Sequence record: PZ386972.1
Length of the DNA stretch: 64,000 nt
Origin: a phage
Strand: one strand, 5' to 3'
Made by a program: the position numbers and the translations under genes. Each line of letters starts with the position of its first letter. Positions within the stretch are counted from its first letter, which is position 1. Below are positions 15,831 to 41,570 of the stretch, piece by piece. The notes beneath the pieces are model-generated. The model was given only the letters and a program-made list of their open reading frames with translations, did no database searches and had not been told where the DNA came from.

Positions 15831-16337
15831 TTACACCTTAAATTGCTGTAAGGATTTACACATTTCAAGATCCGGACTAAATTCTAGCATATAGCTAACA
15901 GCTTTTAAATCTTGAAGATTTATCCCAGTCCTACCGTTGACTATAACCGTTGGATACTGATACATCATAGCACCCGCATCATCAAGCACACACCAATGTT
16001 TGAGCTTATGCTTTTCAACGAAGCGAAGAACAGAATTACCCCTAGATAATCCACCTCCAGTAAAATCCGTTGTACCAAGAAAGCGATCGATAAGACCTAA
16101 TCCGGTCATAATCTGAACGTTCTCCATCTCATTTCTAACAGAGAACCAAGATGATACCCCAACAATCATTATTGGGGAAGGACGAATAAAGTCCTGAAAA
16201 GCCTTGAGAAGTGGTTTGAAAACCCAGTCACTTCCAAAGAAAATCTTTTCATCATCAGGTGCATGATGGTGGGAGATGCTCGAATTGAGCACCCCATCAA
16301 TATCTAGAAAAATAATTGGAGTATTACTTATTTCCAT
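15831..16337 (-). CDS. HAD-superfamily phosphatase-like protein
   Basis: 168 aa; HAD motif I IIFLDIDGVLNS; C-terminal DD motif. Confidence 0.5.
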   Translation of the reverse strand: MEISNTPIIFLDIDGVLNSSISHHHAPDDEKIFFGSDWVFKPLLKAFQDFIRPSPIMIVGVSSWFSVRNEMENVQIMTGLGLIDRFLGTTDFTGGGLSRGNSVLRFVEKHKLKHWCVLDDAGAMMYQYPTVIVNGRTGINLQDLKAVSYMLEFSPDLEMCKSLQQFKV

Positions 16338-16506: not shown

Positions 16507-16682
16507 ACCTGTTTCTCCTCATCTCCAGAGGAGAACCACATATTATCCGTAGTATAGATAATTTTATATGTGTATCCCAACCGTTTTCTTACACTAGGAA
16601 ACCTGTAGGCAAACCTATAACACCAAGTGCCAGACTCAGTTATAAAAATATCCCATTCATTATTTCTTGCTTCTCGACACAT
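16497..16682 (-). CDS. hypothetical small protein (61 aa)
   Basis: ORF track. Confidence 0.3.
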   Translation of the reverse strand: MCREARNNEWDIFITESGTWCYRFAYRFPSVRKRLGYTYKIIYTTDNMWFSSGDEEKQVCP

Positions 16683-17478
16683 AAGGTCTACCCTCTAAAT
16701 GAGCTTCTACACGAGCAATAAAATCAGGATCACTGAAAGCATCTACCGCACCCTTACTCCAATAAGGGATACTACGTTCTTCCAGCTGGTACATCTCACT
16801 ACGAGTCATACCCTGATAGCCTGGCTCCGCTGCTAGGGCACTATCATAGTAGTTAACTACCATAAATTTCGCAGCAGTCCTATTAAGAACAGGAAATAAT
16901 TCCCAGTAGAAGTTAATTACTTGGTTAGAGCAACCAACCACAACGATCATATCTTGGCTGGTAATACCATCAAAAACATTGTACATTTCTGCATATGCTG
17001 GAGCATGCTCTCCAAAGAAGATTACATTAGGTTTAACCCATTTATAATCATCTGGATCAATAGAAGTATATCCTACATCAATAACCAGTTTATTGCTACT
17101 ATTGTAGCTATCAGCTACAACAACCTCTTTTAAATATCCGTGAATGTGCAGAATGTCACTATGTGGAACGCCAGCACGCTCAATAAGGTCATCGACGTTG
17201 GTAGTCAAGTTTACTACTTGACCTGGATATTGTTTATACCATTCACCAATACGCAAATGCGCAAGATTGGGTTCAACAGTTTTTAGCTCTTCACGACGCT
17301 TGTTGTAAAACATATGGGTTTTATGATAAAAATTACCACGAAAGGCATGAATATTACATACTTCTTCTAGATCATAATCATCCCACAATGCTTTACCACT
17401 AGCAGTATCAGTACGAAAAGCTCGTACACCACTTTCAACACTCAAACCTGCACCGCTAATAATAATTAATCTACGCAT
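16660..17478 (-). CDS. Sir2 (sirtuin)-like NAD-binding protein
   Basis: 272 aa; N-terminal GAGLSVESGVRAFR matches the sirtuin Rossmann signature GAGxSxxSGIPxFR. Confidence 0.5.
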   Translation of the reverse strand: MRRLIIISGAGLSVESGVRAFRTDTASGKALWDDYDLEEVCNIHAFRGNFYHKTHMFYNKRREELKTVEPNLAHLRIGEWYKQYPGQVVNLTTNVDDLIERAGVPHSDILHIHGYLKEVVVADSYNSSNKLVIDVGYTSIDPDDYKWVKPNVIFFGEHAPAYAEMYNVFDGITSQDMIVVVGCSNQVINFYWELFPVLNRTAAKFMVVNYYDSALAAEPGYQGMTRSEMYQLEERSIPYWSKGAVDAFSDPDFIARVEAHLEGRPYVSRSKK

Positions 17479-23684: not shown

Positions 23685-23713
23685 TTGCTAATCGCTACCA
23701 GATTTGCTATAAT
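23685..23713 (+). promoter_or_regulatory. early promoter (TTGCTA, 17 bp, TATAAT)
   Basis: -35 at 23685-23690, -10 at 23708-23713. Confidence 0.55.
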
Positions 23714-23719: not shown

Positions 23720-24217
23720 ATGAAATTAACACAGAGTAGATTAAAAGAGCTAATCTCCTATGATCCTGAAACTGGTGAATTTACCTGGCTTCCAAGAAAA
23801 AATTTAGCAAAGCATTTATGGAACGCTAAAGCAGGAACCTACGATAAGCTAGGGTATCTTCGTATAAAAGTGGAAGGAGTTCAATACTTAGCTCATCGCC
23901 TAGCCTTCTTGTATATGACTGGAGAAATACCAGAAGGAAAAATTGACCATAAAGATACTAATCCGTCCAATTGTGCCTGGAATAATCTACGTGAAGCCAC
24001 GAGTTCCCAAAATTCTATGAACTCATGCGCAAGAGTGGATAACCAGCTTGGAATGAAAAATATTCGTGTAAAAGGCAATTCATTTCAGGTTAGGATAGGC
24101 AAAGACGGTAAATCTTATACAAAAACTTTAAAAACCATAGAAGAAGCTATAGAGTGGAGAGATACCAAACTACTAGAACTTCATGGGGACTTTGCAAACA
24201 ACGGAGAAGCTAAATGA
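23720..24217 (+). CDS. HNH homing-endonuclease-like protein
   Basis: 165 aa; HRLAFLYMTGE...IDHKDTNPSNCAWNNLREATSSQN matches the HNH signature; inserted between nrdA and nrdB. Confidence 0.7.
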   Translation: MKLTQSRLKELISYDPETGEFTWLPRKNLAKHLWNAKAGTYDKLGYLRIKVEGVQYLAHRLAFLYMTGEIPEGKIDHKDTNPSNCAWNNLREATSSQNSMNSCARVDNQLGMKNIRVKGNSFQVRIGKDGKSYTKTLKTIEEAIEWRDTKLLELHGDFANNGEAK

Positions 24218-26821: not shown

Positions 26822-27103
26822 ATGATTTCAGCCAAAGAAGCTCAAGAACTTGCAGGATTAACAGAAGTACCCGCATTTCTAAAGTTTATAGAAGAAAAGA
26901 TTGTAGAAGCTGCTAAGTCTGGAAATACAGAAGTAATTATTCGAGATAATCCTTACGCTAGGTGGCTATATAATCCTAGAGAAATGCCAGGAGCAGCTAA
27001 ATCGGTACTAAAAACCTTATCGGATAAGGGGTATCATCTCTCACAATACTACCGAGAAGCCGCCTTTGTAGACATGGGTCTTAAAATTAGTTGGGAGGTA
27101 TAA
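26822..27103 (+). CDS. hypothetical protein (93 aa)
   Basis: ORF track; GGAGG RBS. Confidence 0.5.
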   Translation: MISAKEAQELAGLTEVPAFLKFIEEKIVEAAKSGNTEVIIRDNPYARWLYNPREMPGAAKSVLKTLSDKGYHLSQYYREAAFVDMGLKISWEV

Positions 27104-27579
27104 TGTCGGTTTTCCACATTTATACAGATGGTGCTTGTAAGTCTAATCCAGGTCCAGGTGCTTGGGGTTTTATTGTCTATGATGATAACGACGATCGTTT
27201 AGGTTCTAAATCTGGATATAGTCCTAAAACTACAAATAATGAGATGGAACTCACGGCTATTGTAGAAGCTCTACGTTGGTCTGTTAAAAAAGATAATAGA
27301 CCAATTGCTATCTATACTGACTCTGCTTATTGCAAAAATGGCATGGAAAGTTGGATGTTTTCTTGGCAAAGGAAAGGCTGGAAGAAAGCAGATGGTGAAG
27401 TCCCTCTTAATCTAGAACTTTGGCAGGAAGCATTTAAATTAACACAGCAGTATATCAACTTTCACAATACTAATCCTACCTTTATTAAGGTTAAAGGACA
27501 TTCTGGTATTAGTGGTAATGAAGCTGTAGATGCATTGTGTAACACAGTTATTACTGAGGCTGAAATGGCCGAGATGTGA
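27103..27579 (+). CDS. rnh: ribonuclease H
   Basis: MSVFHIYTDGACKSNPGPGAWGF matches the RNase HI N-terminus; start set to ATG 27103 after GGGAGG. Confidence 0.75.
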   Translation: MSVFHIYTDGACKSNPGPGAWGFIVYDDNDDRLGSKSGYSPKTTNNEMELTAIVEALRWSVKKDNRPIAIYTDSAYCKNGMESWMFSWQRKGWKKADGEVPLNLELWQEAFKLTQQYINFHNTNPTFIKVKGHSGISGNEAVDALCNTVITEAEMAEM

Positions 27580-27599: not shown

Positions 27600-27628
27600 T
27601 TGCTTAAAGCCACCTAATTTAGTATAAT
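27600..27628 (+). promoter_or_regulatory. early promoter
   Basis: TTGCTT 27600-27605, TATAAT 27623-27628. Confidence 0.6.
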
Positions 27629-27655: not shown

Positions 27656-27940
27656 ATGCGAATTTATAACTCAAATTCATTAGGATTTAAACCATTGAGA
27701 AAACGTGCACAATCACCTCGTCAAATAAGAAAGGCTAATATTGGTGAGCCAGAAACACGTCTTCCACCTCCTCCAGAACAACGTTTAGTTTATCTGGACG
27801 AAGAATTAGCTGAACGCGAAAGAAAAGCTCAAGAAGAGATTGAGCGTAAGAAAATGTGTACTGCCCCAGCCTACTCCAAAGGGGCTTATCAGTATATCTA
27901 TACAGCCGAAGAGGCCAAAGATGCGGGGCGTAAAAAATGA
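27656..27940 (+). CDS. hypothetical protein (94 aa)
   Basis: ORF track. Confidence 0.5.
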   Translation: MRIYNSNSLGFKPLRKRAQSPRQIRKANIGEPETRLPPPPEQRLVYLDEELAERERKAQEEIERKKMCTAPAYSKGAYQYIYTAEEAKDAGRKK

Positions 27941-28386
27941 AGATTACTGAATTTAAAGGTGCTTATAGTTTCTTATCTAACTTTTATTTATCACCAATTA
28001 CTTTCGAATATCTGAATGAAATATGGCATGCTGATACTGTAGAACATGCTTTTCAGGCTATGAAATCCGACCAAAAAGATGATGTAGCTCATGTACTACG
28101 CTCCCTAAATGCAGGAGTTGCTAAACGTAGAGGACGTAAATTAATTCTACGCTCTGACTGGGATAAGGTAAAAGATGATGTAATGTTAGAGCTTTTACGG
28201 TTAAAGTTTGCAATCCCTGATTTGAGAGACAAACTGTTAGCAACAGAAAATGCAACTTTGATTGAAGGAAATACCTGGGGGGATACATATTGGGGTGTTT
28301 GCCGAGGCATCGGGGATAATACTTTAGGAGTTCTTTTGATGCAGGTAAGGTCTGAAATTAAAAGAAGCTTACAGTTAATAAATTAA
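27937..28386 (+). CDS. NADAR (YbiA/DUF1768-like) domain protein
   Basis: 149 aa; YSFLSNFYLSPI...EHAFQAMK matches the NADAR signature. Confidence 0.6.
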   Translation: MKITEFKGAYSFLSNFYLSPITFEYLNEIWHADTVEHAFQAMKSDQKDDVAHVLRSLNAGVAKRRGRKLILRSDWDKVKDDVMLELLRLKFAIPDLRDKLLATENATLIEGNTWGDTYWGVCRGIGDNTLGVLLMQVRSEIKRSLQLIN

Positions 28387-28394: not shown

Positions 28395-28423
28395 TTGCTA
28401 AACGCTTCAAATTCTCGTATAAT
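28395..28423 (+). promoter_or_regulatory. early promoter
   Basis: TTGCTA 28395-28400, TATAAT 28418-28423. Confidence 0.6.
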
Positions 28424-28461: not shown

Positions 28462-28977
28462 ATGGCTAAGCAGAAAAACGCAAAAACTCAAGCAGCTCCG
28501 GCAGTTAAAACTTTCCCCCAGACTGAGGCTAACCGCAAAGCTCGTCTGGAACGCCACCTGCGTAAGCATCCTACCGATGCTCAGGCTGCGCAAGCACTGA
28601 ATAATCCGGCTCCGATTCGTCAAAAGCCGAAGGCTAAGAACGCTACTCGTTCTGTAGCCCGCCTTGTGACCTATGTACAGGGTTACGGTCACAAATCTGT
28701 TCCCGTAGCACTGAGTTTCAATGCTGGAGCAGAATTGTTCCCTCGTAATGGCATGGCCATGAAAGATTATGAGAAAGCAGTTAACCAGAAACGCAAACCA
28801 ACGGCAGATGTATTGCGTGATACTCGTGGACAGTTTGGTTCTGTTAAGCCAAATATCTTTGGCGTAGAGTATAGTAAAGATAATGTTCGTGCTCTGTGTT
28901 ACGGTGTAGGCATTAAGTTCACGGGTGATTCTGCTCGTAAATCTGCTAAACCAGCTCGTAAACGTAAAGAGAAGTAA
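28462..28977 (+). CDS. hypothetical basic (Lys/Arg-rich) protein (171 aa)
   Basis: ORF track; RBS. Confidence 0.5.
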   Translation: MAKQKNAKTQAAPAVKTFPQTEANRKARLERHLRKHPTDAQAAQALNNPAPIRQKPKAKNATRSVARLVTYVQGYGHKSVPVALSFNAGAELFPRNGMAMKDYEKAVNQKRKPTADVLRDTRGQFGSVKPNIFGVEYSKDNVRALCYGVGIKFTGDSARKSAKPARKRKEK

Positions 28978-29562: not shown

Positions 29563-30264
29563 ATGAAAGTAAAACCATTTGGTATGCTAGATATTGAATC
29601 TCTAGGAACTCCAGGAGATTGTGGTACTACTCATATCGCAATGCCTTCTTTCGCTTTTGTGGCTATGCATGGGATTGATAAAGACCCTGACTTAGTATTT
29701 GTTACTTTGGATGTGCAGGATCAGCTTAATTCTGGTGCCAAAGTTACAGCATCTACTCTAGCATTCTGGATGGATCAAGCTAAAAATAGCCCCTCTGCTA
29801 TTCACATAATGGAAGCTATGAAGGAACGTAATCCAAAACTGATTGCCTTCCAAAATGGTAAACATCATTGCACTAATAAATTAGGCTCAAACTATGCTGC
29901 CTTCTCTATGGCGCAAAATATTATGGAGTTGGCTCTAGGCGAAAATGCTTTGTATTATGGCAATGGCCCAGAGTTTGATATGACTATCTACTCTGCAAAC
30001 ACGTTCCATGCTGGAACCAATGAAGAGGTAGTTCCGTGGAAATTCTGGAATTTAGGCAATGTTCGATCTCTTCGTAATCTCTGGATGCAAGCTGGTTATA
30101 GTTACAAAGATCTAGAGGCTGAAGGTATTAGCTGGGCAAAAGCTAAAATGGAAAAGATGGACACCATTCGTTATGGGATCTATCCGGTTAAGCACGACCC
30201 AGCATTCGATGCCCTAGTTGAGGGCTATTGTGTTGCAGCTATGATCGAAAAAATGAAAATTTGA
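29563..30264 (+). CDS. DEDDh-type 3'-5' exonuclease-like protein
   Basis: 233 aa; N-terminal LDIESLG (Exo I-like D-x-E) and C-terminal HDPAFDAL (H-x4-D). Confidence 0.4.
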   Translation: MKVKPFGMLDIESLGTPGDCGTTHIAMPSFAFVAMHGIDKDPDLVFVTLDVQDQLNSGAKVTASTLAFWMDQAKNSPSAIHIMEAMKERNPKLIAFQNGKHHCTNKLGSNYAAFSMAQNIMELALGENALYYGNGPEFDMTIYSANTFHAGTNEEVVPWKFWNLGNVRSLRNLWMQAGYSYKDLEAEGISWAKAKMEKMDTIRYGIYPVKHDPAFDALVEGYCVAAMIEKMKI

Positions 30265-31592: not shown

Positions 31593-31621
31593 TTGCTAAT
31601 TTACTAAGTTATTTGTATAAT
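31593..31621 (+). promoter_or_regulatory. early promoter
   Basis: TTGCTA 31593-31598, TATAAT 31616-31621. Confidence 0.6.
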
Positions 31622-31651: not shown

Positions 31652-31969
31652 ATGACTTTTCATATTTTGATTGATGATGTGCGTAATCTTCACGGAATGG
31701 ACATTATCATTCGAACCCCAGAAGCCGCTGTAGAGTTTCTGAATAAAACTGATACCACAGGCCACTTCGTTTATATGGATAATGACTTGGCTGTAGATGG
31801 TATGGAAGGTTATCAAATTCTTCGTTTACTATTAGAATTTGGGCAGAGACCAAAGAAAGTGGTACTAGTAACCTCGAACCCAGTAGCTAAGCAAAATATG
31901 CGTAATGATTTGCTTGACTTAGGGTATAAAGAAAATCCCAATCGTGTTGAATATGATTGGCAGGAGTAA
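31652..31969 (+). CDS. hypothetical protein (105 aa)
   Basis: ORF track. Confidence 0.5.
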   Translation: MTFHILIDDVRNLHGMDIIIRTPEAAVEFLNKTDTTGHFVYMDNDLAVDGMEGYQILRLLLEFGQRPKKVVLVTSNPVAKQNMRNDLLDLGYKENPNRVEYDWQE

Positions 31970-33931: not shown

Positions 33932-34006
33932 CGGGGTGTAGTCTAAGGGAGAGGCAGGAGTCTTCTAAATTCCTTTATGCAGGTTCGAATCCTGTCACCT
34001 CGGCCA
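33932..34006 (+). tRNA. tRNA-Arg (anticodon UCU)
   Basis: Acceptor CGGGGTG/CACCTCG; D-stem; anticodon loop CTTCTAA; T-arm GCAGGTTCGAATCCTGT; encoded CCA. Confidence 0.6.
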
Positions 34007-34040
34007 ATTTTATTAACTGTAACTAAAACAAAGGAAATAT

Positions 34041-34988
34041 ATGTTTAATACTAAAAATATGAAAGAACTGACTTCTGAGCAGAAAGTAATTCGTACTATT
34101 AAACGTTGGGGTATTGGTGCTGTAGTTGGTTTAGCAGGCTTGATTCTAGCCTTTAATTCATATACTATTGTTTCTGATGGTACGGTTAAAACTCAAACAT
34201 TCCTGGGTAAAGTAGATCCTAATCCAGTATTGCCGGGTTTCCATCTTGTAAACCCGTTTGCATCTTTCGATACTTTTAGTACAAAAGATATTGCTGTAAA
34301 ATTAGATAAACTTCAGGTTCCTAGTCAGGATAAGTTTAAATCCACTGTTGACCTGACTGTTATGTTGCAATTTGATGGTTCTAAGGCACCGATTAACCGT
34401 ATTAACGCAGGTACTCAGGATCAGGCACTAGACAAGTATGTAACTGAAAAATTACTGTCTACTATTCGTGAGTTTGGTAAGTCTGTACCTAAAGCACAAG
34501 ATTTGTTTGATGCTAAAATTCAGGCTCAATTGCAAACTGCAATTCAACAGGAAGTTGAAGAGTATGCGCGCCCATATGGTTACACAGTTAAGCAGGTATT
34601 CCTTCAGGATATTACCTTGCCGCCAGTAATCATGGAACAGGTACAGAATACCAAAGTTCGTGAAGAGCAAGTTAATGCTGCGAAAGCTGAACTTGCTCGC
34701 GTTGAACAGGAAGCACAGCAAAAAGTTAAACAAGCAGAAGCAGATCGTGAAGCTCGTAACAACCAAGCTATTGCTAATGAACGTGACGCAGATGCTAAAC
34801 TGTACGCAGCTAAGAAAGAAGCTGAAGCTAACGCCGCATTGCAACGTACCATTACTCCTGAAATGATTCGTTGGAAACAACTGGAAGTTGAAATGATCCG
34901 TGCTCAGAAGTATCAAGGTGGTGTACCTCAGACTGTGGTAGGTACTGGCTACGATGGTCAAATGATCATGGATATGCGTAATAAATAA
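34041..34988 (+). CDS. SPFH/band-7 (stomatin/prohibitin-like) membrane protein
   Basis: 315 aa; N-terminal TM helix; SPFH-like core (GFHLVNPF...); C-terminal Ala/Glu/Lys-rich coiled coil. Confidence 0.55.
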   Translation: MFNTKNMKELTSEQKVIRTIKRWGIGAVVGLAGLILAFNSYTIVSDGTVKTQTFLGKVDPNPVLPGFHLVNPFASFDTFSTKDIAVKLDKLQVPSQDKFKSTVDLTVMLQFDGSKAPINRINAGTQDQALDKYVTEKLLSTIREFGKSVPKAQDLFDAKIQAQLQTAIQQEVEEYARPYGYTVKQVFLQDITLPPVIMEQVQNTKVREEQVNAAKAELARVEQEAQQKVKQAEADREARNNQAIANERDADAKLYAAKKEAEANAALQRTITPEMIRWKQLEVEMIRAQKYQGGVPQTVVGTGYDGQMIMDMRNK

Positions 34989-35013
34989 TACCCGCATGTA
35001 ACATCTGAAGTAA

Positions 35014-35046
35014 GCCCTGCGTTTCCTGGAGAGCGCAGGGCTTTTC
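35014..35046 (+). terminator. rho-independent terminator
   Basis: Hairpin GCCCTGCGTTTCCTGGAGAGCGCAGGGC followed by TTTTCT. Confidence 0.6.
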
Positions 35047-35084
35047 TATATAATGTAATTATAAAACTAACTAGGAGATTAAAC

Positions 35085-35603
35085 ATGGGTGTTGATGAAT
35101 TAACACAGCATCTTCTATCTAGAGGATTTGATGCGGATAAATATCATTGCTGGTTAAGTCCGGAAGGATGGCTAACAGTCCCGTTGTATGATTTCTCTGG
35201 GATGTTGAGGGGCTATCAAACTTATAATCCTTCTGCTCCAAAAGGTCATGGTAAGTGTCCCTTTGAAGCTAAATATTTTACCTATTCTACTACCCAGTGT
35301 GTATGGGGATTAGAAACTCTCAATGGAGATGAAAAAGTAGTATTGATCGCTGAATCTGTATTTAAGGCAGTTGCGTTACATAATGCTGGTTATCCAGCCC
35401 TAGCAATGTTGGGTTCTTCTCCAGGAAAAGCGTTATTAAAGCAACTGAAATTATTACCTTTTAAATTGGTAGCTGTCGGGGATAACGATCCTGCGGGTGA
35501 AAAATTTGCTAGAAAATTAAACGGCTTTGTTTCTCCTGTAGATGTGGATGAGATGTCTACAGAAAACTTGAAAAATTTTCTTGCTATGAAGCTAAATTTC
35601 TAA
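35085..35603 (+). CDS. TOPRIM-like domain protein
   Basis: 172 aa; VVLIAESVFKAVAL...VAVGDNDPAGEKFA resembles a TOPRIM fold. Confidence 0.4.
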   Translation: MGVDELTQHLLSRGFDADKYHCWLSPEGWLTVPLYDFSGMLRGYQTYNPSAPKGHGKCPFEAKYFTYSTTQCVWGLETLNGDEKVVLIAESVFKAVALHNAGYPALAMLGSSPGKALLKQLKLLPFKLVAVGDNDPAGEKFARKLNGFVSPVDVDEMSTENLKNFLAMKLNF

Positions 35604-35609
35604 TATAAT
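35581..35609 (+). promoter_or_regulatory. early promoter embedded in the 3' end of the 35085..35603 CDS
   Basis: TTGCTA 35581-35586, TATAAT 35604-35609. Confidence 0.55.
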
Positions 35610-35624
35610 ATATCTTATAAATTC

Positions 35625-35713
35625 GGAAGAATAGCATAACGGTATTGCAGCAGATTGCTAATCTGTCGGTTTGAAATATAGCCTTGTGGGTTCGATTCCC
35701 ACTTCTTCCACCA
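35625..35713 (+). tRNA. tRNA-Ser (anticodon GCU), long variable arm
   Basis: Acceptor GGAAGAA/TTCTTCC; anticodon loop TTGCTAA; T-arm GTGGGTTCGATTCCCAC; CCA encoded; 89 nt. Confidence 0.6.
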
Positions 35714-35719
35714 AATTCT

Positions 35720-35797
35720 GGTTCTCAAGCTCATATGGTATGAGCACCCGGCTCATAACCGGAAGGTACGTAGGTTCGAATCCTCGGGGAGCCACCA
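35720..35797 (+). tRNA. tRNA with CAU anticodon (Met, fMet or Ile2)
   Basis: Acceptor GGTTCTC/GGGAGCC; D-arm GCTC/GAGC; anticodon loop CTCATAA; weak T-stem; CCA. Confidence 0.5.
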
Positions 35798-35816
35798 AAT
35801 TAAATAAGGACAACTA

Positions 35817-36005
35817 ATGGAATTATTCATAGTTTCTGTTAAATTTGCACAAGATAGAGAACGTTCGGATGAGTTTAAACAAGGGTACAGACTAGTAAAG
35901 GCTACATCTGAACTCCATGCTATGGACAAAGTAGTAGACTATATGTATAATGTAGAAGATGTTTACTACGTCAATGCTTTAGAAGCCTCAAAAGTAATTA
36001 ACTAG
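35817..36005 (+). CDS. hypothetical protein (62 aa)
   Basis: ORF track. Confidence 0.4.
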   Translation: MELFIVSVKFAQDRERSDEFKQGYRLVKATSELHAMDKVVDYMYNVEDVYYVNALEASKVIN

Positions 36006-36014
36006 GGAGACTAT

Positions 36015-36191
36015 ATGTCTAAGTTTCAAGAACTCAAGCAAGAGCTAGAAGAGTGTGCCTGCCCTGAGTGTAGGGGAATTGGTGAAAGTTCTGATGCAGA
36101 AGCAGGAGATACTTTTTGCAATATCTGGGTTTGCCCAAATTGCAGTGGTACAGGTATTAATCCTAACTGCGGTATTTCCCCTAGATATTGA
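36015..36191 (+). CDS. small Cys-rich zinc-ribbon-like protein (58 aa), below the ORF-track cutoff
   Basis: CPECRG...CNIWVCPNCSG Cys pairs; GGGAGA RBS. Confidence 0.35.
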   Translation: MSKFQELKQELEECACPECRGIGESSDAEAGDTFCNIWVCPNCSGTGINPNCGISPRY

Positions 36192-36302
36192 ACGAGGGTA
36201 ACACCTGTGAAACTAAAAGATTATTATATTGGTTGGTTTGTGGGACTAGTAGTAGGATTTTCACTAGGCTATAATATGTATCAACTAATAAACTGATTAC
36301 AT

Positions 36303-36379
36303 GGGGGTGTAATCGAATTGGCATAGGTACTGGACTTAAAATTCAGGTTTTGTGGGTTCGAATCCCACCACCCCTACCA
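36303..36379 (+). tRNA. tRNA, anticodon uncertain (hand fold gives UAA)
   Basis: Acceptor GGGGGTG/CACCCCT; T-arm GTGGGTTCGAATCCCAC; CCA; D-arm not resolved. Confidence 0.45.
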
Positions 36380-36554
36380 ACTTAAGGAAATAAGATGTAT
36401 AGACATCCACCTCCGCCAACACGTCGTTCTAGAGAAGTTATCCTCATGGAATTGACGAAAAACTTCAAGGCAACTCTTGAAGATAGAGATCTAGGCACGG
36501 ATGAAGACATTGATTTTATTTGTAGACTATTAAAGATGAAACTGGAGAAACAAC

Positions 36555-36761
36555 ATGGCTAATCCTGAAATTACCGCACAACGTTTCATGCTTAAAGGCA
36601 TGATTGCTGAGGCAGGTATGACCCAAGAGGTTGCAGACTTTCATAAGCAATTTCTTGATATTATAACTCTAGCTAAAGAGACAGGAGAAAGAGAACACGG
36701 AGCAGCAATTATGGCTATATCTCTTATTAGCCTAGACTTAGCTGAAGAATCTGGAGTTTAG
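36555..36761 (+). CDS. hypothetical protein (68 aa)
   Basis: ORF track. Confidence 0.4.
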   Translation: MANPEITAQRFMLKGMIAEAGMTQEVADFHKQFLDIITLAKETGEREHGAAIMAISLISLDLAEESGV

Positions 36762-36791
36762 CTCCTCCAAACAGAATTTTTAAAAATGTAC

Positions 36792-36821
36792 TTGCCTTTT
36801 GCTTTAAATTTCTGGTATAAT
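36792..36821 (+). promoter_or_regulatory. early promoter
   Basis: TTGCCT 36792-36797, TATAAT 36816-36821, 18-bp spacer. Confidence 0.55.
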
Positions 36822-36851
36822 AGTTATATAAATTGATGAAGGAGTTAACGA

Positions 36852-37127
36852 ATGCAAAATCGTGTTATAGCAACTGGTATTGAAAGTGCAATCTGTAAAT
36901 CCTGGGAAGGCTGGGAAGGTGAGATTGAATGGCTTTATTTCTACGATGTAGAACTTCTGCCGGAAGTTAAAGCTAAATGTGTTGAAGCTGGCATGGCTCC
37001 AGATGCAAAAGCTGATATTGATATTTCAATGTCTGAACTTAAAGGTCGTGTAATTACTGTTAGTGATGAGGGCGAAGAAGTTTTCGAACTTCCATTCTCC
37101 TTAACTGTCGCTCCTAAGTTCGACTAA
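36852..37127 (+). CDS. hypothetical protein (91 aa)
   Basis: ORF track; GGAG RBS. Confidence 0.45.
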   Translation: MQNRVIATGIESAICKSWEGWEGEIEWLYFYDVELLPEVKAKCVEAGMAPDAKADIDISMSELKGRVITVSDEGEEVFELPFSLTVAPKFD

Positions 37128-37132
37128 CTAAT

Positions 37133-37173
37133 ACAGCACTGAGCAAGTTCTTTAAAATTTGACTTGCTCAGTG
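37133..37173 (+). terminator. 12-bp-stem hairpin whose 3' arm overlaps the next promoter's -35
   Basis: GCACTGAGCAAG ... CTTGCTCAGTGC inverted repeat. Confidence 0.4.
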
Positions 37174-37192
37174 CCATAAAACTTGATATAAT
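37164..37192 (+). promoter_or_regulatory. early promoter
   Basis: TTGCTC 37164-37169, TATAAT 37187-37192. Confidence 0.5.
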
Positions 37193-37255
37193 AGTTATCT
37201 AATTTGGAAACATATCTAAAAGTGTTTAAACTAGTATTTGAATACTTTTAAATAT

Positions 37256-37343
37256 GGGCGTTTATTCCGTAGATGGTAGCGGAGGGGATTGTAAATCCCT
37301 GGTCATTGCGACTCGAGTGGTTCGACTCCATTAACGCCCACCA
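37256..37343 (+). tRNA. tRNA-Tyr (anticodon GUA), long variable arm
   Basis: Acceptor GGGCGTT/AACGCCC; anticodon stem GGGGA/TCCCT with loop TTGTAAA; variable stem-loop; CCA. Confidence 0.65.
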
Positions 37344-37361
37344 AATTTAAAGGTAAAATAT

Positions 37362-37844
37362 ATGTACACTGATAGAATTGTTCAAGAAGCTGCAAACAGA
37401 GGTCTTATTGATCTGGGATCACCAGTTGATATAACTAAAGAGCTAATAACAGAGAGCCTTACGTTTGGCACAGCTAACTTTGGCCGAGATAGTAACCGTC
37501 GGTATAGCTTGAAACTATCAGCATTATCTTTTATTAAGTACAATAAGAGTATTGGAGAAAAATCAAGTTGTGGTTTTATCTACGCGATAACTAATCCAGC
37601 TTGGACTGATTATGTAAAAATTGGCATGTCTTCTGACCCAAAAACAAGATTAGCCAATTACCAGACATATTCTCCACTACGTGACTATAAGTTAATACAT
37701 TGGTCATTTTGGTTTAATGCTAGAGAAGCAGAGAAAATGCTTCATAATAGCTTTCCAAAAAGAATTAATGAATGGGTAGTTTTGGACAGAAGTGTAGATG
37801 AAACACTTGCTGATTTTAATAAACTATCTAATAAACAATTTTAA
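37362..37844 (+). CDS. GIY-YIG-like (T5orf172-type) domain protein within the tRNA cluster
   Basis: 160 aa; GFIYAITNPAWTDYVKIGMSSDPKTRLANYQT resembles the GIY-YIG/T5orf172 core. Confidence 0.5.
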   Translation: MYTDRIVQEAANRGLIDLGSPVDITKELITESLTFGTANFGRDSNRRYSLKLSALSFIKYNKSIGEKSSCGFIYAITNPAWTDYVKIGMSSDPKTRLANYQTYSPLRDYKLIHWSFWFNAREAEKMLHNSFPKRINEWVVLDRSVDETLADFNKLSNKQF

Positions 37845-37845
37845 T

Positions 37846-37920
37846 GCACCTATCATCTATCGGTTAGGACATCAGGTTTTCAACCTGAGAAGCTTGGTTC
37901 GATTCCGTGTGGGTGTACCA
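37846..37920 (+). tRNA. tRNA-Glu (anticodon UUC)
   Basis: Acceptor GCACCTA/TGGGTGT; anticodon stem TCAGG/CCTGA with loop TTTTCAA; CCA. Confidence 0.55.
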
Positions 37921-37928
37921 AATTCTGC

Positions 37929-38005
37929 ATTCCTAGAGTGTTACTGGACAGCATGTCGGTCTCCAAAACCGTACGGTCTAGGTTCGAGTCCTAGTAGGTT
38001 TGCCA
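37929..38005 (+). tRNA. tRNA candidate, anticodon uncertain (possibly CCA/Trp)
   Basis: T-arm CTAGGTTCGAGTCCTAG and CCA end are clear; acceptor pairing needs two U-U mismatches. Confidence 0.35.
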
Positions 38006-38011
38006 AAATTT

Positions 38012-38086
38012 GCACCTTTAGCTGAGATGGATTAGCGCTTGCCTGAAGAGCTTGAGAGGTTCGTTCGATACGAACAGGGTGCACCA
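38012..38086 (+). tRNA. tRNA candidate, anticodon uncertain (possibly GAA/Phe)
   Basis: Acceptor GCACCTT/AGGGTGC; D-arm GCTG/TAGC; T-arm GTTCGTTCGATACGAAC; CCA; loop CTGAAGA with weak stem. Confidence 0.4.
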
Positions 38087-38088
38087 AA

Positions 38089-38376
38089 TTGAGGGAGCTG
38101 CTGATGCATCCTGAAAACTTCTTTATTTACTGCGCGGATAAGTTGCTGAAACGTAGAATTAACAAAGTCTATCATTATCGTGCTAGTCAACAGCCTTATG
38201 TATACGCTTTTGACGGTGATCACATCCCATTAGAACAACTATCTTGTGATTACATGATATTGAAGAACTTTGACGAGACAAAGATCTCAAGCGTTCATAA
38301 TCGACAGAATCCCTTAACGTGGAAATATAAGAAGAAAAAGAAAGGCATCAAATTCTTAAAAAATGTAGTTGCTTAG
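38089..38376 (+). CDS. hypothetical protein (95 aa)
   Basis: ORF track. Confidence 0.4.
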   Translation: MRELLMHPENFFIYCADKLLKRRINKVYHYRASQQPYVYAFDGDHIPLEQLSCDYMILKNFDETKISSVHNRQNPLTWKYKKKKKGIKFLKNVVA

Positions 38377-38397
38377 TTTCCAAAAGTTCTGTATAAT
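38369..38397 (+). promoter_or_regulatory. early promoter
   Basis: TTGCTT 38369-38374, TATAAT 38392-38397. Confidence 0.55.
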
Positions 38398-38425
38398 AAT
38401 TACATAAATTGAACTGGAGAAGCAA

Positions 38426-38713
38426 ATGAAACGATTAGTTAGATTTAAGTGTTGTGGTTCTGAACATATTTTCACACATCTTCGTGAATTTAAAATGTGT
38501 GATTGTGGTAAATCAGGCTATGACTCAGGAGATGGGTTCTACACCCGTACTCTAGGGAACTTCAATGATCTAGAATTTGAAGATCTCGAAAAACAAGAAA
38601 AAGAATTATGTATCTGTTATGAATGTGGTGATCAAGATTACTACTCTAAAACAGGTAAGAAAGTGTGTAGCAATTGTGGTTCCGATCATGTAGCTACACA
38701 TTATGAAAGATAA
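38426..38713 (+). CDS. Cys-rich zinc-finger-like protein (95 aa)
   Basis: Multiple CxxC pairs (CDCGKSG, CYECGD, CSNCGSDH). Confidence 0.45.
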   Translation: MKRLVRFKCCGSEHIFTHLREFKMCDCGKSGYDSGDGFYTRTLGNFNDLEFEDLEKQEKELCICYECGDQDYYSKTGKKVCSNCGSDHVATHYER

Positions 38714-38718
38714 TAAAC

Positions 38719-38794
38719 CGACCGTTGGCTGAATGGCTTAGGCGAAGGATTGCAAATCCTTTTTATGTGAGTTCAAATCTCATGCGGTCGTCCA
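38719..38794 (+). tRNA. tRNA-Cys (anticodon GCA)
   Basis: Acceptor CGACCGT/GCGGTCG; anticodon stem AAGGA/TCCTT with loop TTGCAAA; T-arm GTGAGTTCAAATCTCAT; CCA. Confidence 0.6.
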
Positions 38795-38796
38795 AT

Positions 38797-38936
38797 TTGC
38801 TGAAAGAATTGTTAAATCAATTCAGGCACGCGTAGGAACACTGTCTCCGTAATTGAAAGATGAGACACGGTTTGGAGAGGTATGCCGCTACACGCTACGG
38901 TGCTAACTCCGTCTAGGTGAAAATCCTAGTCAGCAA
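38797..38936 (+). ncRNA. structured RNA (~140 nt) with terminal pairing and T-arm-like hairpin, not a canonical tRNA
   Basis: 5' TTGCTGA pairs with 3' TCAGCAA; hairpins GTCTC...GAGAC and CTAGGTGAAAATCCTAG. Confidence 0.3.
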
Positions 38937-38946
38937 TATAAATTTA

Positions 38947-39029
38947 GGGTCGTTAGCCAAGCGGTTTGGCGGTGGACTGTTAATCCATGTCGAAAGACAA
39001 CGTAGGTTCGAATCCTACACGGCCCGCCA
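38947..39029 (+). tRNA. tRNA with GUU anticodon (Asn-like) and an atypical 13-nt variable stem-loop
   Basis: Acceptor GGGTCGT/ACGGCCC; anticodon stem GTGGA/TCCAT with loop CTGTTAA; variable GTCGAAAGACAAC; CCA. Confidence 0.45.
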
Positions 39030-39131
39030 AATTCTGTGTAGAGTTAAGTAAACCGGTAGCCAACCAGCTATCATTGCTGACATCGAATTCAGCCACAGAT
39101 ACCATTTTCATTAATAACTGAGGAAACAAGC

Positions 39132-39317
39132 ATGTCCAAGAATGTAATTGCACAGTTAGAAGTTCATCGTGATAACACAGCTAATAACATTAAGTGCCGA
39201 CAAAAAGATATTGAAGCTCAAAAGGCTGATCTTTTAATGAGTATTCGAGAGCTTAATGTACGAAAAGAGTTTCTTAAAGAACTTAATGCAGCTATTGAAA
39301 AACTCAAAGCTGAGTAA
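39132..39317 (+). CDS. hypothetical protein (61 aa)
   Basis: ORF track; AGGAAACAAGC RBS. Confidence 0.35.
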   Translation: MSKNVIAQLEVHRDNTANNIKCRQKDIEAQKADLLMSIRELNVRKEFLKELNAAIEKLKAE

Positions 39318-39326
39318 ATGAATTAT

Positions 39327-39403
39327 GCGACCGGGGCTGGCTTGGTAATGGTACTCCCCTGTCACGGGAGGGAATGTGGGTTCGAATCCCATCGGTCGCG
39401 CCA
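39327..39403 (+). tRNA. tRNA-Asp (anticodon GUC)
   Basis: Acceptor GCGACCG/CGGTCGC; anticodon stem CTCCC/GGGAG with loop CTGTCAC; CCA. Confidence 0.6.
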
Positions 39404-39420
39404 AATAAGGTAGGTTAGCT

Positions 39421-39579
39421 ATGGAACGTAGGGAGTTTACTCCGGAAGAGATAGAGCAGATAAAAGAATCTGCTATGAAAAATGCTAGAATATCTCTGTC
39501 ACTGGAAGGTATCATTATAAGTGATGTAAACTTTGAAAAAATCAAAGCCATAGCTGATGAACTGGAAAAAGTAATTTAA
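39421..39579 (+). CDS. hypothetical small protein (52 aa), below the ORF-track cutoff
   Basis: ATG after AAGGTAGG; fills the gap between two tRNAs. Confidence 0.3.
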   Translation: MERREFTPEEIEQIKESAMKNARISLSLEGIIISDVNFEKIKAIADELEKVI

Positions 39580-39580
39580 T

Positions 39581-39656
39581 ACATCCATAGCTCAATGGTT
39601 AGAGCTACCGCCTCTTAAGCGGAGGGTTCTAGGTTCAAGTCCTAGTGGGTGTACCA
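39581..39656 (+). tRNA. tRNA-Lys (anticodon CUU)
   Basis: Acceptor ACATCCA/TGGGTGT; D-arm GCTC/GAGC; anticodon loop CTCTTAA; T-arm CTAGGTTCAAGTCCTAG; CCA. Confidence 0.55.
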
Positions 39657-39682
39657 AACTAAACTAGCACGAGAAATATGCT

Positions 39683-40030
39683 ATGATTAATGCTAAAGAA
39701 GAGTTGTTACTTGCCCTAAAGAATACTAAGTCTGAAGTTAAGTGTATTAAGATAGAATTCGGTTATTATGGGAACAAAGAAGTTTGGATATTACCCGTAG
39801 GTTATACAGAAAAAGATATTGAAGATTTTCTAAATAATCTAGACTTCAAATATGATTCTGGTTTCGGTGGACAATTGCTTTACGGTAACGTATGGTTTAC
39901 TGATGGAACTTGGTTAGAGCGTGGTGAATATGATGGTTCTGAATGGTGGGAGTATAAGACTACACCAGCAATCCCAGAAGAATGCCGAACAATTAATGGT
40001 GAAGTAGATCGTACTTTACTATTAAATTAA
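39683..40030 (+). CDS. hypothetical protein (115 aa)
   Basis: ORF track. Confidence 0.45.
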   Translation: MINAKEELLLALKNTKSEVKCIKIEFGYYGNKEVWILPVGYTEKDIEDFLNNLDFKYDSGFGGQLLYGNVWFTDGTWLERGEYDGSEWWEYKTTPAIPEECRTINGEVDRTLLLN

Positions 40031-40038
40031 CAAAATTT

Positions 40039-40277
40039 CAGTGCAGAACACGGAGCTAGCAATTCGGAAGTGCTGACTCATGATAGGCTGCCTATGTACT
40101 TGCGAAGCGGTCGTGTCCAAGACTCGGACTCTTGCACTGAAAACAATCAAACATTCTAGCGTGGTTGATGGGGAAACCAGCTTGGCTAGGGCAGAAGCTC
40201 GTTCGATTCGAGTGAAAGAATGGTTCTCGTAAGTCCGCACAAGTGATAACAGGTTCGAGTCCTGTCTAGAATGACAC
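40039..40277 (+). ncRNA. composite structured RNA region with closing stems and two T-arm-like hairpins, unresolved
   Basis: CAGTGCAG (40039-46) pairs CTGCACTG (40132-39); ATTCTAG (40153-59) pairs CTAGAAT (40267-73); T-arm-like hairpins at 40197-40213 and 40250-40266. Confidence 0.3.
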
Positions 40278-40422
40278 TATAAAGTTTACTTATTATGTAG
40301 GTTCCGATAGATCGGCGGGTCTATTCTGGCATTTAAGAGAGGTCTCGCAAACTTCTTTGTCAGCCGTGGGGTTGATAGCCTCCAGGTGGCCTACACAATA
40401 AGTAAATTTATTAAAAATTCAT

Positions 40423-40451
40423 TTGCTATTCTGCTTAATTATCTGTATAAT
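40423..40451 (+). promoter_or_regulatory. early promoter
   Basis: TTGCTA 40423-40428, TATAAT 40446-40451. Confidence 0.6.
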
Positions 40452-40481
40452 ATATTTTATAAAGTGAGTTAACAAAATTAA

Positions 40482-40557
40482 CAGTGCGTAGCGCAGTTGG
40501 TAGCGTGGGAGCCTTGGATGCTTCGGGTCGCAGGTTCGAGTCCTGCCGCACTGACCA
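40482..40557 (+). tRNA. tRNA-Pro (anticodon UGG)
   Basis: Acceptor CAGTGCG/CGCACTG; anticodon stem GGAGC/GCTTC with loop CTTGGAT; T-arm GCAGGTTCGAGTCCTGC; CCA. Confidence 0.65.
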
Positions 40558-40563
40558 AACAAT

Positions 40564-40641
40564 TGCGGGTTAGATCTCTGGTAGAGATCGCTAGTCTCAT
40601 AAGCTAGAAAGAGGTAGGTTCGATTCCTGCACCCGCTTCCA
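40564..40641 (+). tRNA. tRNA with CAU anticodon and a 1:72 mismatch (initiator- or Ile2-like)
   Basis: D-arm GATC/GATC; anticodon stem CTAGT/GCTAG with loop CTCATAA; T-arm with TTCGATT loop; CCA. Confidence 0.55.
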
Positions 40642-40661
40642 TTTTAATAGAGGATTTCGAA

Positions 40662-40829
40662 ATGAAAGTATTTCGATTAGTAGTAAGTGACAAACGTTTA
40701 GGTAAGAATACCTCAAAATCCTTACTTGCTCATTATGGAAAAGATGAGAAAGAAGTAATGGCGGAGTTTGGGATTAATCACCCTTACTTGAAAGTTCACT
40801 CTATTAAAGAAGTATATAATGGTTACTAA
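40662..40829 (+). CDS. hypothetical small protein (55 aa), below the ORF-track cutoff
   Basis: ATG after GAGGA; between two tRNAs. Confidence 0.3.
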   Translation: MKVFRLVVSDKRLGKNTSKSLLAHYGKDEKEVMAEFGINHPYLKVHSIKEVYNGY

Positions 40830-40830
40830 T

Positions 40831-40909
40831 AGATCGCTAGCTCAATAGGTTTAGTAGCATCCGACTTTTAATCGGAAGGTTCTGGGTTCGAGTCCCAGGC
40901 GATCTACCA
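40831..40909 (+). tRNA. tRNA-Lys (anticodon UUU)
   Basis: Acceptor AGATCGC/GCGATCT; anticodon stem TCCGA/TCGGA with loop CTTTTAA; T-arm CTGGGTTCGAGTCCCAG; CCA. Confidence 0.55.
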
Positions 40910-40927
40910 ATTTCAAGAAAAACGCAG

Positions 40928-41273: not shown

Positions 41274-41278
41274 AATAC

Positions 41279-41440: not shown

Positions 41441-41467
41441 GCGTGATAGAGGCATCATCTTATTATT

Positions 41468-41558: not shown

Positions 41559-41570
41559 AACAATTTATAT

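What the first reader, a model, noticed from the sequence alone, without database searches (positions are those of the whole stretch)
27937..28386. NADAR-domain protein in the early nucleotide-metabolism operon
The ORF carries the YbiA/NADAR signature (FLSNFY...EHAFQAxK). NADAR enzymes have been reported to reverse ADP-ribosylation of guanine in DNA, so a phage copy expressed early is a candidate counter-defence against DarT-type toxins, or a nucleotide-salvage enzyme.
Basis: partly seen in the sequence, partly recalled or inferred. Interest (0 to 1): 0.5.

Follow-up and report, generated by a model that had tools for sequence, protein, structure and literature searches.

The report
Known phage anti-DarT NADAR enzyme (AdfN)

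Summary
The ORF is real: 27937-28386 (+), 149 aa, with the quoted motifs. It matches Pfam NADAR at 77 bits against a cut-off of 35. The AlphaFold model (pLDDT 97.8) superposes on E. coli YbiA and on Phytophthora NADAR bound to ADP-ribose. All eight ADP-ribose-contacting residues are kept.

The window is a T5-like phage (Markadamsvirinae). The protein is 148/149 identical to bas32_0066, the only NADAR ORF in phage Bas32. That protein is therefore AdfN-Bas32. A 2025 paper (PMC11825919) reported that it neutralises DarT1 in E. coli and rescues T5, RB69 and Bas25 from DarTG1, but not from DarTG2.

The counter-defence reading is supported and already known. The nucleotide-salvage alternative is not supported: the riboflavin N-glycosidase model scores below its cut-off and there is no riboflavin context.

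New details found here:
- The gene is a clean 450-bp accessory cassette, present in 96 of about 448 T5-like records and absent from T5.
- It is under strong purifying selection (dN/dS about 0.06).
- It is translationally coupled to the T5.090 homologue and ends just upstream of the P-H207 promoter homologue.
- One T5-like phage carries a 60%-identical NADAR in the adjacent slot.
- The active-site residue is Glu. This type also removes cytidine-linked ADP-ribose in other NADARs, which is untested here.

Interest is low.

The parts
27937..28386 (+). adfN-type NADAR gene (149 aa): a DNA ADP-ribosyl-guanine glycohydrolase that acts as an orphan antitoxin-like counter-defence factor
   Evidence: The ORF is. 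Pfam NADAR scores 77.2 bits. It is 148/149 identical to Bas32 bas32_0066, i.e. AdfN-Bas32. The AF2 model and fold matches are. dN/dS is 0.06.
27970..27987 (+). N-terminal FLSNFY motif (F12-Y17) of the NADAR core; L13, S14 and N15 are invariant among the 55 aligned sequences
28042..28065 (+). E36-HAFQAM-K43. E36 corresponds to P. nicotianae E43 and E. coli C7 E88 (distal-ribose contact). K43 corresponds to K50 and K95 (pyrophosphate contact, essential in C7 NADAR).
   Evidence: Alignments are. Residue roles come from PMC11543638. Both residues are invariant in the 55-sequence alignment and in 11 T5-like alleles.
28264..28293 (+). E110-GNTWG-D116-TY-W119. E110 is the glutamate of the last beta-strand, equivalent to P. 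nicotianae E125; this position is Asp in DarG1 and His in T4 AdfN. D116 and W119 correspond to D130 and W133.
27656..27940 (+). orf94, the homologue of T5.090 (PHROG 4593, function unknown). Its stop overlaps the NADAR start (ATGA), which implies translational coupling. Its last ~40 nt differ from NADAR-less phages, so they belong to the cassette.
   Evidence: It is present in 448 T5-like records with or without NADAR, so it is not a dedicated partner.
27600..27628 (+). Promoter-like site TTGCTT-17 nt-TATAAT between rnh and orf94. It is identical to the promoter annotated upstream of T5.090 in T5 and is the likely start of the orf94-NADAR transcript.
   Evidence: Alignment A4 and the T5 annotation. 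It was not picked up by the consensus scan because the -35 hexamer matches only 3 of 6 positions.
28395..28423 (+). Promoter TTGCTA-17 nt-TATAAT, the homologue of T5 promoter P-H207. It starts the next unit (DUF7022 gene at 28462) and marks the 3' edge of the NADAR cassette. No terminator lies between the NADAR stop and this promoter.
   Evidence: The sequence from 28386 onward is identical between T5, Bas32 and the window.

Best explanation
The gene encodes an AdfN-type NADAR enzyme, an 'orphan antitoxin' carried by a lytic T5-like phage. It is made from an early transcript, together with the upstream T5.090 homologue. It binds the ADP-ribose attached to the N2 of guanine in single-stranded phage DNA by DarT1-type ADP-ribosyltransferases of the host DarTG1 toxin-antitoxin defence. 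By homology, E36 and E110 hold the distal ribose, and K43, R67, W75, K79, D116 and W119 hold the pyrophosphate. The enzyme hydrolyses the N-glycosidic bond, restoring unmodified guanine so that replication and transcription can continue. It does not act on thymidine-linked ADP-ribose (DarTG2). What is shown here: the ORF, the domain, the fold, residue conservation, near-identity to AdfN-Bas32, cassette structure, purifying selection and promoter context. What is shown in the literature for the T70 allele: DarT1 neutralisation and rescue of three phages. What is inferred: that the I70 allele behaves the same, that the chemistry is hydrolytic as in other NADARs, and that the gene protects its own phage in nature.
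For: The protein matches Pfam NADAR well above threshold. The AF2 model has pLDDT 97.8 and matches YbiA and the ADP-ribose-bound P. nicotianae NADAR. All eight ADP-ribose contacts of P. nicotianae NADAR map onto the window protein, seven identical and one R to K: E43/K50/R79/W89/R93/E125/D130/W133 correspond to E36/K43/R67/W75/K79/E110/D116/W119. K63 sits at the same spacing from K43 as K115 does from K95 in E. coli C7 NADAR. The protein is 148/149 identical to bas32_0066, the single NADAR ORF in Bas32. Published tests of AdfN-Bas32 show that it neutralises DarT1 without phage, rescues RB69, T5 and Bas25 on DarTG1, and has no effect on DarTG2 (PMC11825919). T5, used there as a DarTG1-sensitive phage, lacks the gene at this locus and elsewhere in the 38-78 kb region examined. 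dN/dS is about 0.06, and every mapped active-site residue is invariant in 11 alleles. Position 70 is variable in the wider family. The gene has an early-region location with T5-type promoters.
Against: The published tests used ectopic expression. I found no deletion of the gene in a T5-like phage and no report that Bas32 or Bas33 are themselves DarTG1-resistant. In the text available to me, no in vitro assay or catalytic mutant is described for the Bas32 allele specifically. The window allele carries I70, whereas the ten other alleles examined carry T70. Residue conservation alone does not predict in vivo protection: E. coli YbiA and T4 gp30.3 hydrolyse G-ADPr in vitro yet fail to rescue cells from DarT1 (PMC11125620). 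Only about a fifth of T5-like genomes carry the gene, so it is dispensable in many hosts.
Confidence: 0.85

Rival explanations
1. It is a broad-spectrum base-ADP-ribose hydrolase. Besides guanine-ADPr made by DarT1, it would remove cytidine-linked ADP-ribose and act on RNA as well as DNA, so its real targets could include ADP-ribosyltransferase toxins other than DarT1. This extends the best explanation rather than excluding it.
For: The last-strand catalytic residue is Glu (E110), as in the NADAR and YbiA families. PMC12945103 reports that Glu-type NADARs (SCO5665, sponge NADAR, YbiA types) remove both G- and C-ADPr in DNA and RNA. It reports that Asp-type DarG1 and His-type T4 NADAR remove only G-ADPr. 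PMC11833690 reports that all tested NADARs reverse guanosine-ADPr on RNA.
Against: No assay exists for this clade. According, the E. coli sigma70-linked NADAR, placed in the 'NADAR family', was listed among the enzymes unable to remove C-ADPr, so Glu is not sufficient. No cytidine-modifying anti-phage toxin is known in enterobacteria.
Confidence: 0.3
2. It neutralises DarT by binding it stoichiometrically, as ICP1 AdfB and DarG's C-terminal domain do. Hydrolytic activity would then be dispensable.
For: AdfB of ICP1 counters DarT through direct interaction (PMC11481870). In the text I could read, no catalytic mutant of AdfN-Bas32 is described.
Against: All active-site residues are invariant under strong purifying selection. 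The authors state that these phage NADARs depend on enzymatic activity and 'exhibit DNA ADP-ribosylglycohydrolase activity'. A hydrolase explains why a protein from a non-cognate lineage works against DarT1.
Confidence: 0.05
3. It is a YbiA-like housekeeping N-glycosidase that destroys reactive riboflavin-pathway intermediates, or otherwise serves nucleotide salvage.
For: The closest solved structure by sequence is E. coli YbiA (E=7e-15; 41% identity). It has the YbiA-type glutamate E110. The gene sits next to nucleotide-metabolism genes. Many database records call it 'N-glycosidase', 'GTP cyclohydrolase II' or 'swarming motility protein YbiA'.
Against: TIGR02464 scores 65.4 bits, below its 73.7 cut-off. 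There are no riboflavin genes in the window or in Bas32. The gene is an accessory cassette absent from most T5-like phages, including T5. The near-identical protein has a demonstrated anti-DarT1 phenotype, which YbiA lacks.
Confidence: 0.04
4. It degrades low-molecular-weight ADP-ribose-derived immune signals or RNA-repair by-products with N-glycosidic ribosyl bonds, rather than adducts on DNA.
For: This is the general proposal for phage NADARs in PMC9503650. The phage also encodes Sir2, HAD_SAK_2 and cREC_REC domain proteins, which are linked to NAD and RNA-repair networks.
Against: That proposal predates the experiments. The DarT1 and DarTG1 rescue by the near-identical protein is explained directly by DNA de-ADP-ribosylation. 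The other NAD-linked genes are core T5 genes, while NADAR is accessory.
Confidence: 0.04

Closest known systems
AdfN-Bas32 (bas32_0066, QXV80247.1) of Escherichia phage IrisVonRoten/Bas32, anti-DarT factor NADAR (PMC11825919)
   Same: It is 148/149 aa identical and 98.9% identical in nucleotides. It occupies the same locus, between the T5.090 homologue and the P-H207-type promoter, with the same ATGA overlap.
   Different: One residue differs: I70 here, T70 in Bas32, at a family-variable position. The window phage also has an HNH endonuclease gene between nrdA and nrdB that Bas32 lacks.
AdfN-T4 (gp30.3) of phage T4
   Same: It is a stand-alone NADAR core without an N-terminal extension, encoded by a lytic phage. 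It shares the proposed chemistry (guanine-ADPr hydrolysis) and the target defence (DarTG1).
   Different: It is only 23% identical. It has His where this protein has E110 and lacks the W119 equivalent. T4 AdfN needs T-even infection to work and does not rescue uninfected cells, whereas AdfN-Bas32 does. The two were acquired independently.
E. coli YbiA (PDB 2B3W), riboflavin-intermediate N-glycosidase
   Same: It is the best structural and sequence match among solved structures (TM 0.82; E=7e-15). It has the same minimal core and the same Glu in the last strand.
   Different: The window protein scores below the TIGR02464 equivalog cut-off. YbiA is chromosomal, lies in a LexA-controlled operon and does not protect against DarT1.
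DarG1 / DarT1-associated NADAR antitoxin (E. coli C7, Geobacter lovleyi; BC4488 family)
   Same: It has the same enzymatic reaction and the same toxin is neutralised. E88/K95/K115 correspond to E36/K43/K63.
   Different: DarG1 has an N-terminal beta1-beta2-alpha1 DNA-binding extension, Asp instead of Glu at the last-strand position, and an adjacent darT1 gene. None of these is present here.
NADAR of Salmonella phage vB_SenS_UTK0009 (OQ359889.1)
   Same: It is also from a T5-like phage, is 149 aa long, keeps the same catalytic residues and lies in the same genomic region.
   Different: It is only 60% identical. It is inserted one slot upstream, between rnh and the T5.090 homologue rather than after it, and was found in a single phage (two records).

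Membership tests
NADAR superfamily (Pfam PF08719) | Match to the family HMM above the curated gathering score | tested here: met
   77.2 bits against 35.1, E=2.3e-21, covering nearly the whole profile.
NADAR superfamily (Pfam PF08719) | Alpha-helical core flanked by two small beta-sheets (YbiA-like fold) | tested here: met
   AF2 model with pLDDT 97.8. Foldseek TM 0.82 to 2B3W and 0.78 to 8BAU, with no other significant hit.
NADAR superfamily (Pfam PF08719) | Conserved ADP-ribose-binding and catalytic residues (P. nicotianae E43, K50, R79, W89, R93, E125, D130, W133) | tested here: met
   These correspond to E36, K43, R67, W75, K79 (K for R), E110, D116 and W119. Seven of the nine mapped residues are invariant or nearly invariant in the 55-sequence alignment; R67 and K79 are not listed there. 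All nine (these eight plus K63) are invariant across the 11 T5-like alleles.
NADAR superfamily (Pfam PF08719) | Hydrolysis of ADP-ribose from guanine bases | not testable with these tools
   This needs a biochemical assay. [quoted passage not shown]
AdfN (phage anti-DarT factor NADAR), Bas32 type | Sequence identity with the experimentally tested AdfN-Bas32 | tested here: met
   148/149 identical to bas32_0066, which is the only NADAR ORF in the complete Bas32 genome.
AdfN (phage anti-DarT factor NADAR), Bas32 type | Orphan gene in a lytic phage, with no adjacent DarT toxin gene | tested here: met
   Its neighbours are rnh, the T5.090 homologue and a DUF7022 gene. I saw no ADP-ribosyltransferase among the neighbours scanned.
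AdfN (phage anti-DarT factor NADAR), Bas32 type | Neutralises DarT1 and restores phage growth on a DarTG1 host | not testable with these tools
   Published for the T70 allele by ectopic expression. The I70 allele and the native phage context are untested.
YbiA-type riboflavin-intermediate N-glycosidase (NCBIfam TIGR02464 equivalog domain) | HMM score above the curated cut-off | tested here: not met
   65.4 bits against a cut-off of 73.7.
YbiA-type riboflavin-intermediate N-glycosidase (NCBIfam TIGR02464 equivalog domain) | Glutamate in the last beta-strand (YbiA-family signature of de Souza and Aravind, as cited) | tested here: met
   E110 aligns with the YbiA glutamate and with P. nicotianae E125.
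YbiA-type riboflavin-intermediate N-glycosidase (NCBIfam TIGR02464 equivalog domain) | Fusion to, or neighbourhood with, riboflavin biosynthesis genes, or a housekeeping chromosomal context | tested here: not met
   It is a phage accessory cassette, and I saw no rib genes in the window or in Bas32.
DarG1 / BC4488-type DarT1-linked NADAR antitoxin | Encoded next to darT1 | tested here: not met
   There is no toxin gene beside it.
DarG1 / BC4488-type DarT1-linked NADAR antitoxin | N-terminal beta1-beta2-alpha1 extension preceding the YbiA-like core | tested here: not met
   The core motif starts at residue 12 of a 149-aa protein, and the model shows no extra N-terminal element.
DarG1 / BC4488-type DarT1-linked NADAR antitoxin | Aspartate at the last-strand catalytic position (D171 in E. 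coli C7) | tested here: not met
   Glu (E110) is present instead.
T4-type phage NADAR (gp30.3 clade) | Histidine at the last-strand catalytic position, and clustering with T4-superfamily NADARs | tested here: not met
   Glu is present, not His. Identity to gp30.3 is 23%. phmmer with gp30.3 does not find this ORF.

The most novel reading that the evidence does not exclude
Because its catalytic position is Glu (E110) rather than the His of T4 AdfN or the Asp of DarG1, the T5-like AdfN may strip ADP-ribose from cytosine as well as guanine, and from RNA as well as DNA. That would make it a general antidote to base-ADP-ribosylating toxins, not just to DarT1. A 60%-identical NADAR allele has been inserted independently one slot away in another T5-like phage. 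This would then mark the rnh-to-T5.089 interval as a small hot spot where counter-defence genes are swapped in and out.
Probability: 0.3. Interest if true: 0.4.

Novelty: already known. Interest (0 to 1): 0.2.

Why it matters
The gene explains why some T5-like phages should escape DarTG1 while T5 itself does not, which is useful when choosing or engineering therapeutic phages. Most database records still mislabel it as 'swarming motility protein', 'GTP cyclohydrolase II' or 'hypothetical', so correct annotation as AdfN is a practical gain. The function itself was published in 2025, so this is confirmation and not discovery. Three questions remain open: the native phenotype, the I70 allele, and whether this Glu-type enzyme has a broader substrate range than T4 AdfN.

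Tried and rejected
- I looked for a second NADAR that could be the 'real' AdfN-Bas32. HMMs built from close and diverse NADARs, plus YbiA and gp30.3 as single queries, were run against all stop-to-stop segments of the full Bas32 genome, the window and 40 kb of T5. Only bas32_0066 and the window ORF were found.
- I tried to obtain accession numbers from the supplement of PMC11825919. None is held.
- I searched for any report of DarTG1 sensitivity of Markadamsvirinae other than that paper. There was none.
- I checked the HIDEN-SEQ preprint for T5-like essentiality data. It deals only with T4 adfN.
- I asked whether the upstream orf94 is a dedicated partner of NADAR. It is not: it occurs in about 448 T5-like records, with or without NADAR.
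- I asked whether overall charge explains why this minimal NADAR works on DNA in vivo when YbiA and T4 AdfN do not. It does not: this protein is the least basic of the three, with pI 7.9 against 9.4 and 9.0.
- I considered the riboflavin or salvage reading and rejected it (and the gene context).
- The generic sigma-70 scan gave no more promoter-like sites than shuffled sequence does (20 against 23.7). I therefore relied on identity to promoters annotated in T5 instead.

Full report
**Observation.** The window holds an ATG-started ORF at 27937-28386 on the + strand (149 aa). The protein matches Pfam NADAR (PF08719) at 77.2 bits against a gathering score of 35.1 (E=2.3e-21), covering almost the whole profile. 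It also matches PHROG 1017, of unknown function. An AlphaFold2 model built on 55 homologues has mean pLDDT 97.8. Its only significant matches among solved structures are E. coli YbiA (2B3W, TM 0.82) and Phytophthora nicotianae NADAR bound to ADP-ribose (8BAU, TM 0.78).

**Genomic setting.** The window is a T5-like phage of the Demerecviridae, subfamily Markadamsvirinae. It is 95-97% identical in nucleotides to many Salmonella and Escherichia phages but identical to none. The local gene order is:
- HNH endonuclease (23720-24217)
- nrdB
- frd
- td
- orf93
- rnh (27091-27579)
- orf94 (27656-27940, homologue of T5.090)
- NADAR
- a DUF7022 gene (28462-28977, homologue of T5.089)

**Transcription context.** The stop of orf94 overlaps the NADAR start (ATGA), which implies translational coupling. 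Between rnh and orf94 lies TTGCTT-17 nt-TATAAT (27600-27628), identical to the promoter annotated upstream of T5.090 in the T5 record. Nine bases after the NADAR stop begins TTGCTA-17 nt-TATAAT (28395-28423). This region is base-for-base identical to the one annotated in T5 as promoter P-H207. It is most likely the last gene of a short orf94-NADAR unit rather than part of one long nucleotide-metabolism operon. The early timing itself is inferred from the T5 annotation and from general knowledge of T5 gene classes. It was not measured.

**Identity with a characterised protein.** The protein is 148/149 identical to bas32_0066 of Escherichia phage IrisVonRoten (Bas32), which lies at the same locus. 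I fetched the complete Bas32 genome and searched every stop-to-stop segment. The queries were HMMs built from close and from diverse NADARs, plus YbiA and T4 gp30.3 as single sequences. bas32_0066 was the only hit, and the window likewise holds only this one NADAR. bas32_0066 is therefore the 'AdfN-Bas32' of PMC11825919 (Nat Commun 2025). That paper reports three results:
- AdfN-Bas32 neutralises DarT1 toxicity in uninfected E. coli.
- Its ectopic expression restores plaquing of RB69, T5 and Bas25 on a DarTG1 host.
- It does not help T5 against the thymidine-modifying DarTG2.

**Active site.** PMC11543638 lists the P. nicotianae residues that contact ADP-ribose as E43, K50, R79, W89, R93, E125, D130 and W133. 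Chain numbering in 8BAU is offset by +2, which I verified on all eight residues in the alignment. That paper shows E88, K95 and D171 of E. coli C7 NADAR to be needed for function and also implicates K115. In the window protein the P. nicotianae contacts correspond to E36, K43, R67, W75, K79 (K for R), E110, D116 and W119. K63 sits at the spacing of C7 K115. E36, K43, K63, E110, D116 and W119 are invariant, and W75 nearly so, among the 55 aligned sequences. All of the mapped residues are invariant in 11 T5-like alleles. The last-strand catalytic position is Glu, as in the YbiA and stand-alone NADAR families. It is not Asp as in DarG1 or His as in T4 gp30.3.

**What it is not.**
- It is not a YbiA equivalog. 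TIGR02464, the riboflavin-intermediate N-glycosidase model, scores 65.4 bits, below its 73.7 cut-off. I saw no riboflavin genes in the phage.
- It is not a DarG1. There is no adjacent darT1, no N-terminal extension, and Glu instead of Asp.
- It is not of the T4 gp30.3 clade. Identity is 23%, and there is no His.

**Population genetics and cassette structure (new here, but minor).**
- The NADAR DNA occurs in 96 phage records, all at least 95.8% identical. The neighbouring orf94 occurs in 448. About a fifth of sequenced T5-like phages therefore carry the gene.
- T5 lacks it. In T5, T5.090 is followed directly by P-H207 and T5.089. This fits its use as a DarTG1-sensitive test phage.
- The alignment shows a clean indel of about 450 bp. 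Its right edge is the A-rich stretch before the promoter. Its left edge lies within the last ~40 nt of orf94, whose C-terminus differs between phages with and without NADAR.
- Eleven alleles give mean dS 0.136 and mean dN 0.008, a ratio of about 0.06, which indicates strong purifying selection.
- The window's I70 is a minority variant. The ten other alleles examined carry T70, and phage HASG4 is 100% identical to the window protein. The position is variable in the wider family.
- The closest relatives outside T5-like phages (48-60% identity) also sit on phage or phage-like contigs.

**A second allele.** Salmonella phage vB_SenS_UTK0009, also T5-like, carries a NADAR that is only 60% identical. 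It sits in the adjacent slot: rnh-NADAR-T5.090 homologue-DUF7022. This points to an independent acquisition in the same short interval.

**Mechanism and rivals.** The best-supported mechanism is enzymatic removal of ADP-ribose from the N2 of guanine in phage DNA modified by DarT1 (confidence 0.85).

The main caveats are these:
- All functional data come from ectopic expression of the T70 allele.
- I found no native deletion phenotype.
- Conservation of catalytic residues alone does not guarantee in vivo protection. YbiA and T4 gp30.3 hydrolyse G-ADPr in vitro but do not rescue cells from DarT1.

The rivals are:
- A broader substrate range that includes cytidine-ADPr and RNA. PMC12945103 found Glu-type NADARs to act on both G- and C-ADPr, and His- and Asp-type enzymes to act on G only. 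This is untested for this clade.
- Stoichiometric inhibition of DarT, as for ICP1 AdfB. This is unlikely given the selected active site and the authors' statements.
- Riboflavin damage control or salvage, which I rejected above.
- Degradation of small ADP-ribose-derived signals (PMC9503650), which has no specific support.

**Verdict.** The novelty class is 'already known' and interest is low (0.2). The modest open points are the native phenotype, the I70 allele, the possible G+C and DNA+RNA range implied by the Glu-type site, and the apparent hot spot for NADAR insertion between rnh and T5.089.

Noticed in passing
L010:4001-4450 (Salmonella phage vB_SenS_UTK0009, OQ359889.1): A second NADAR allele, only 60% identical to the window's, sits in the same region of another T5-like phage but one slot upstream, between rnh and the T5.090 homologue. 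It was found in a single phage (two records). This suggests independent acquisition and a local hot spot for this kind of gene.
   Followed up: partly
L001:4938-5387 versus L006:4807-5256 (Bas32 and Bas33): PMC11825919 says Bas32 and Bas33 encode identical NADAR proteins. The GenBank records differ at two residues, A9T and E104K. Both are common polymorphisms among T5-like alleles.
   Followed up: yes
window 27937-28386 and flanks, as annotated in public records: The same gene is labelled 'swarming motility protein YbiA', 'GTP cyclohydrolase II', 'N-glycosidase', 'DUF1768', 'NADAR' or 'hypothetical'. Only one record (PV844355.1) calls it 'antitoxin-like enzyme'. Neighbouring small genes are labelled 'baseplate wedge subunit' or 'tail tape measure protein' in several records, which looks like annotation error.
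   Followed up: no
window 23720-24217 (+): An HNH_3 homing-endonuclease gene lies between nrdA and nrdB. T5 (hegH) and Bas33 have one at this position and Bas32 does not, so this is another presence/absence polymorphism.
   Followed up: no
window 16660-17478 (-), 15831-16337 (-), 31652-31969 (+): There is a Sir2-family protein, a HAD_SAK_2 protein (HAD domain of 'Swiss Army Knife' RNA-repair proteins; its T5 homologue T5.105 is annotated as Sir2) and a cREC_REC receiver-like protein. These are further NAD- or RNA-repair-linked domains in the same early region. They appear to be core T5 genes, unlike NADAR.
   Followed up: no
window 33932-44330 (+): A cluster of 22 tRNA genes is interspersed with small ORFs. 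One of these is a T5orf172/MUG113 (GIY-YIG-like) ORF at 37362-37844. This is typical of T5-like phages.
   Followed up: no
window 23685-23713, 28395-28423, 31593-31621 (+): Three promoter-like sites share exactly the same hexamers and spacing (TTGCTA-17 nt-TATAAT). The middle one is the homologue of T5 P-H207. The overall count of promoter-like sites is not above the shuffled expectation.
   Followed up: partly
window 29563-30264 (+): This ORF is annotated 'putative metallopeptidase' in Bas32 and Bas33 and 'exonuclease' in T5 (T5.087). It matches the Rv2179c-like 3'-5' exoribonuclease domain and an exonuclease PHROG, so the peptidase label is probably wrong.
   Followed up: no
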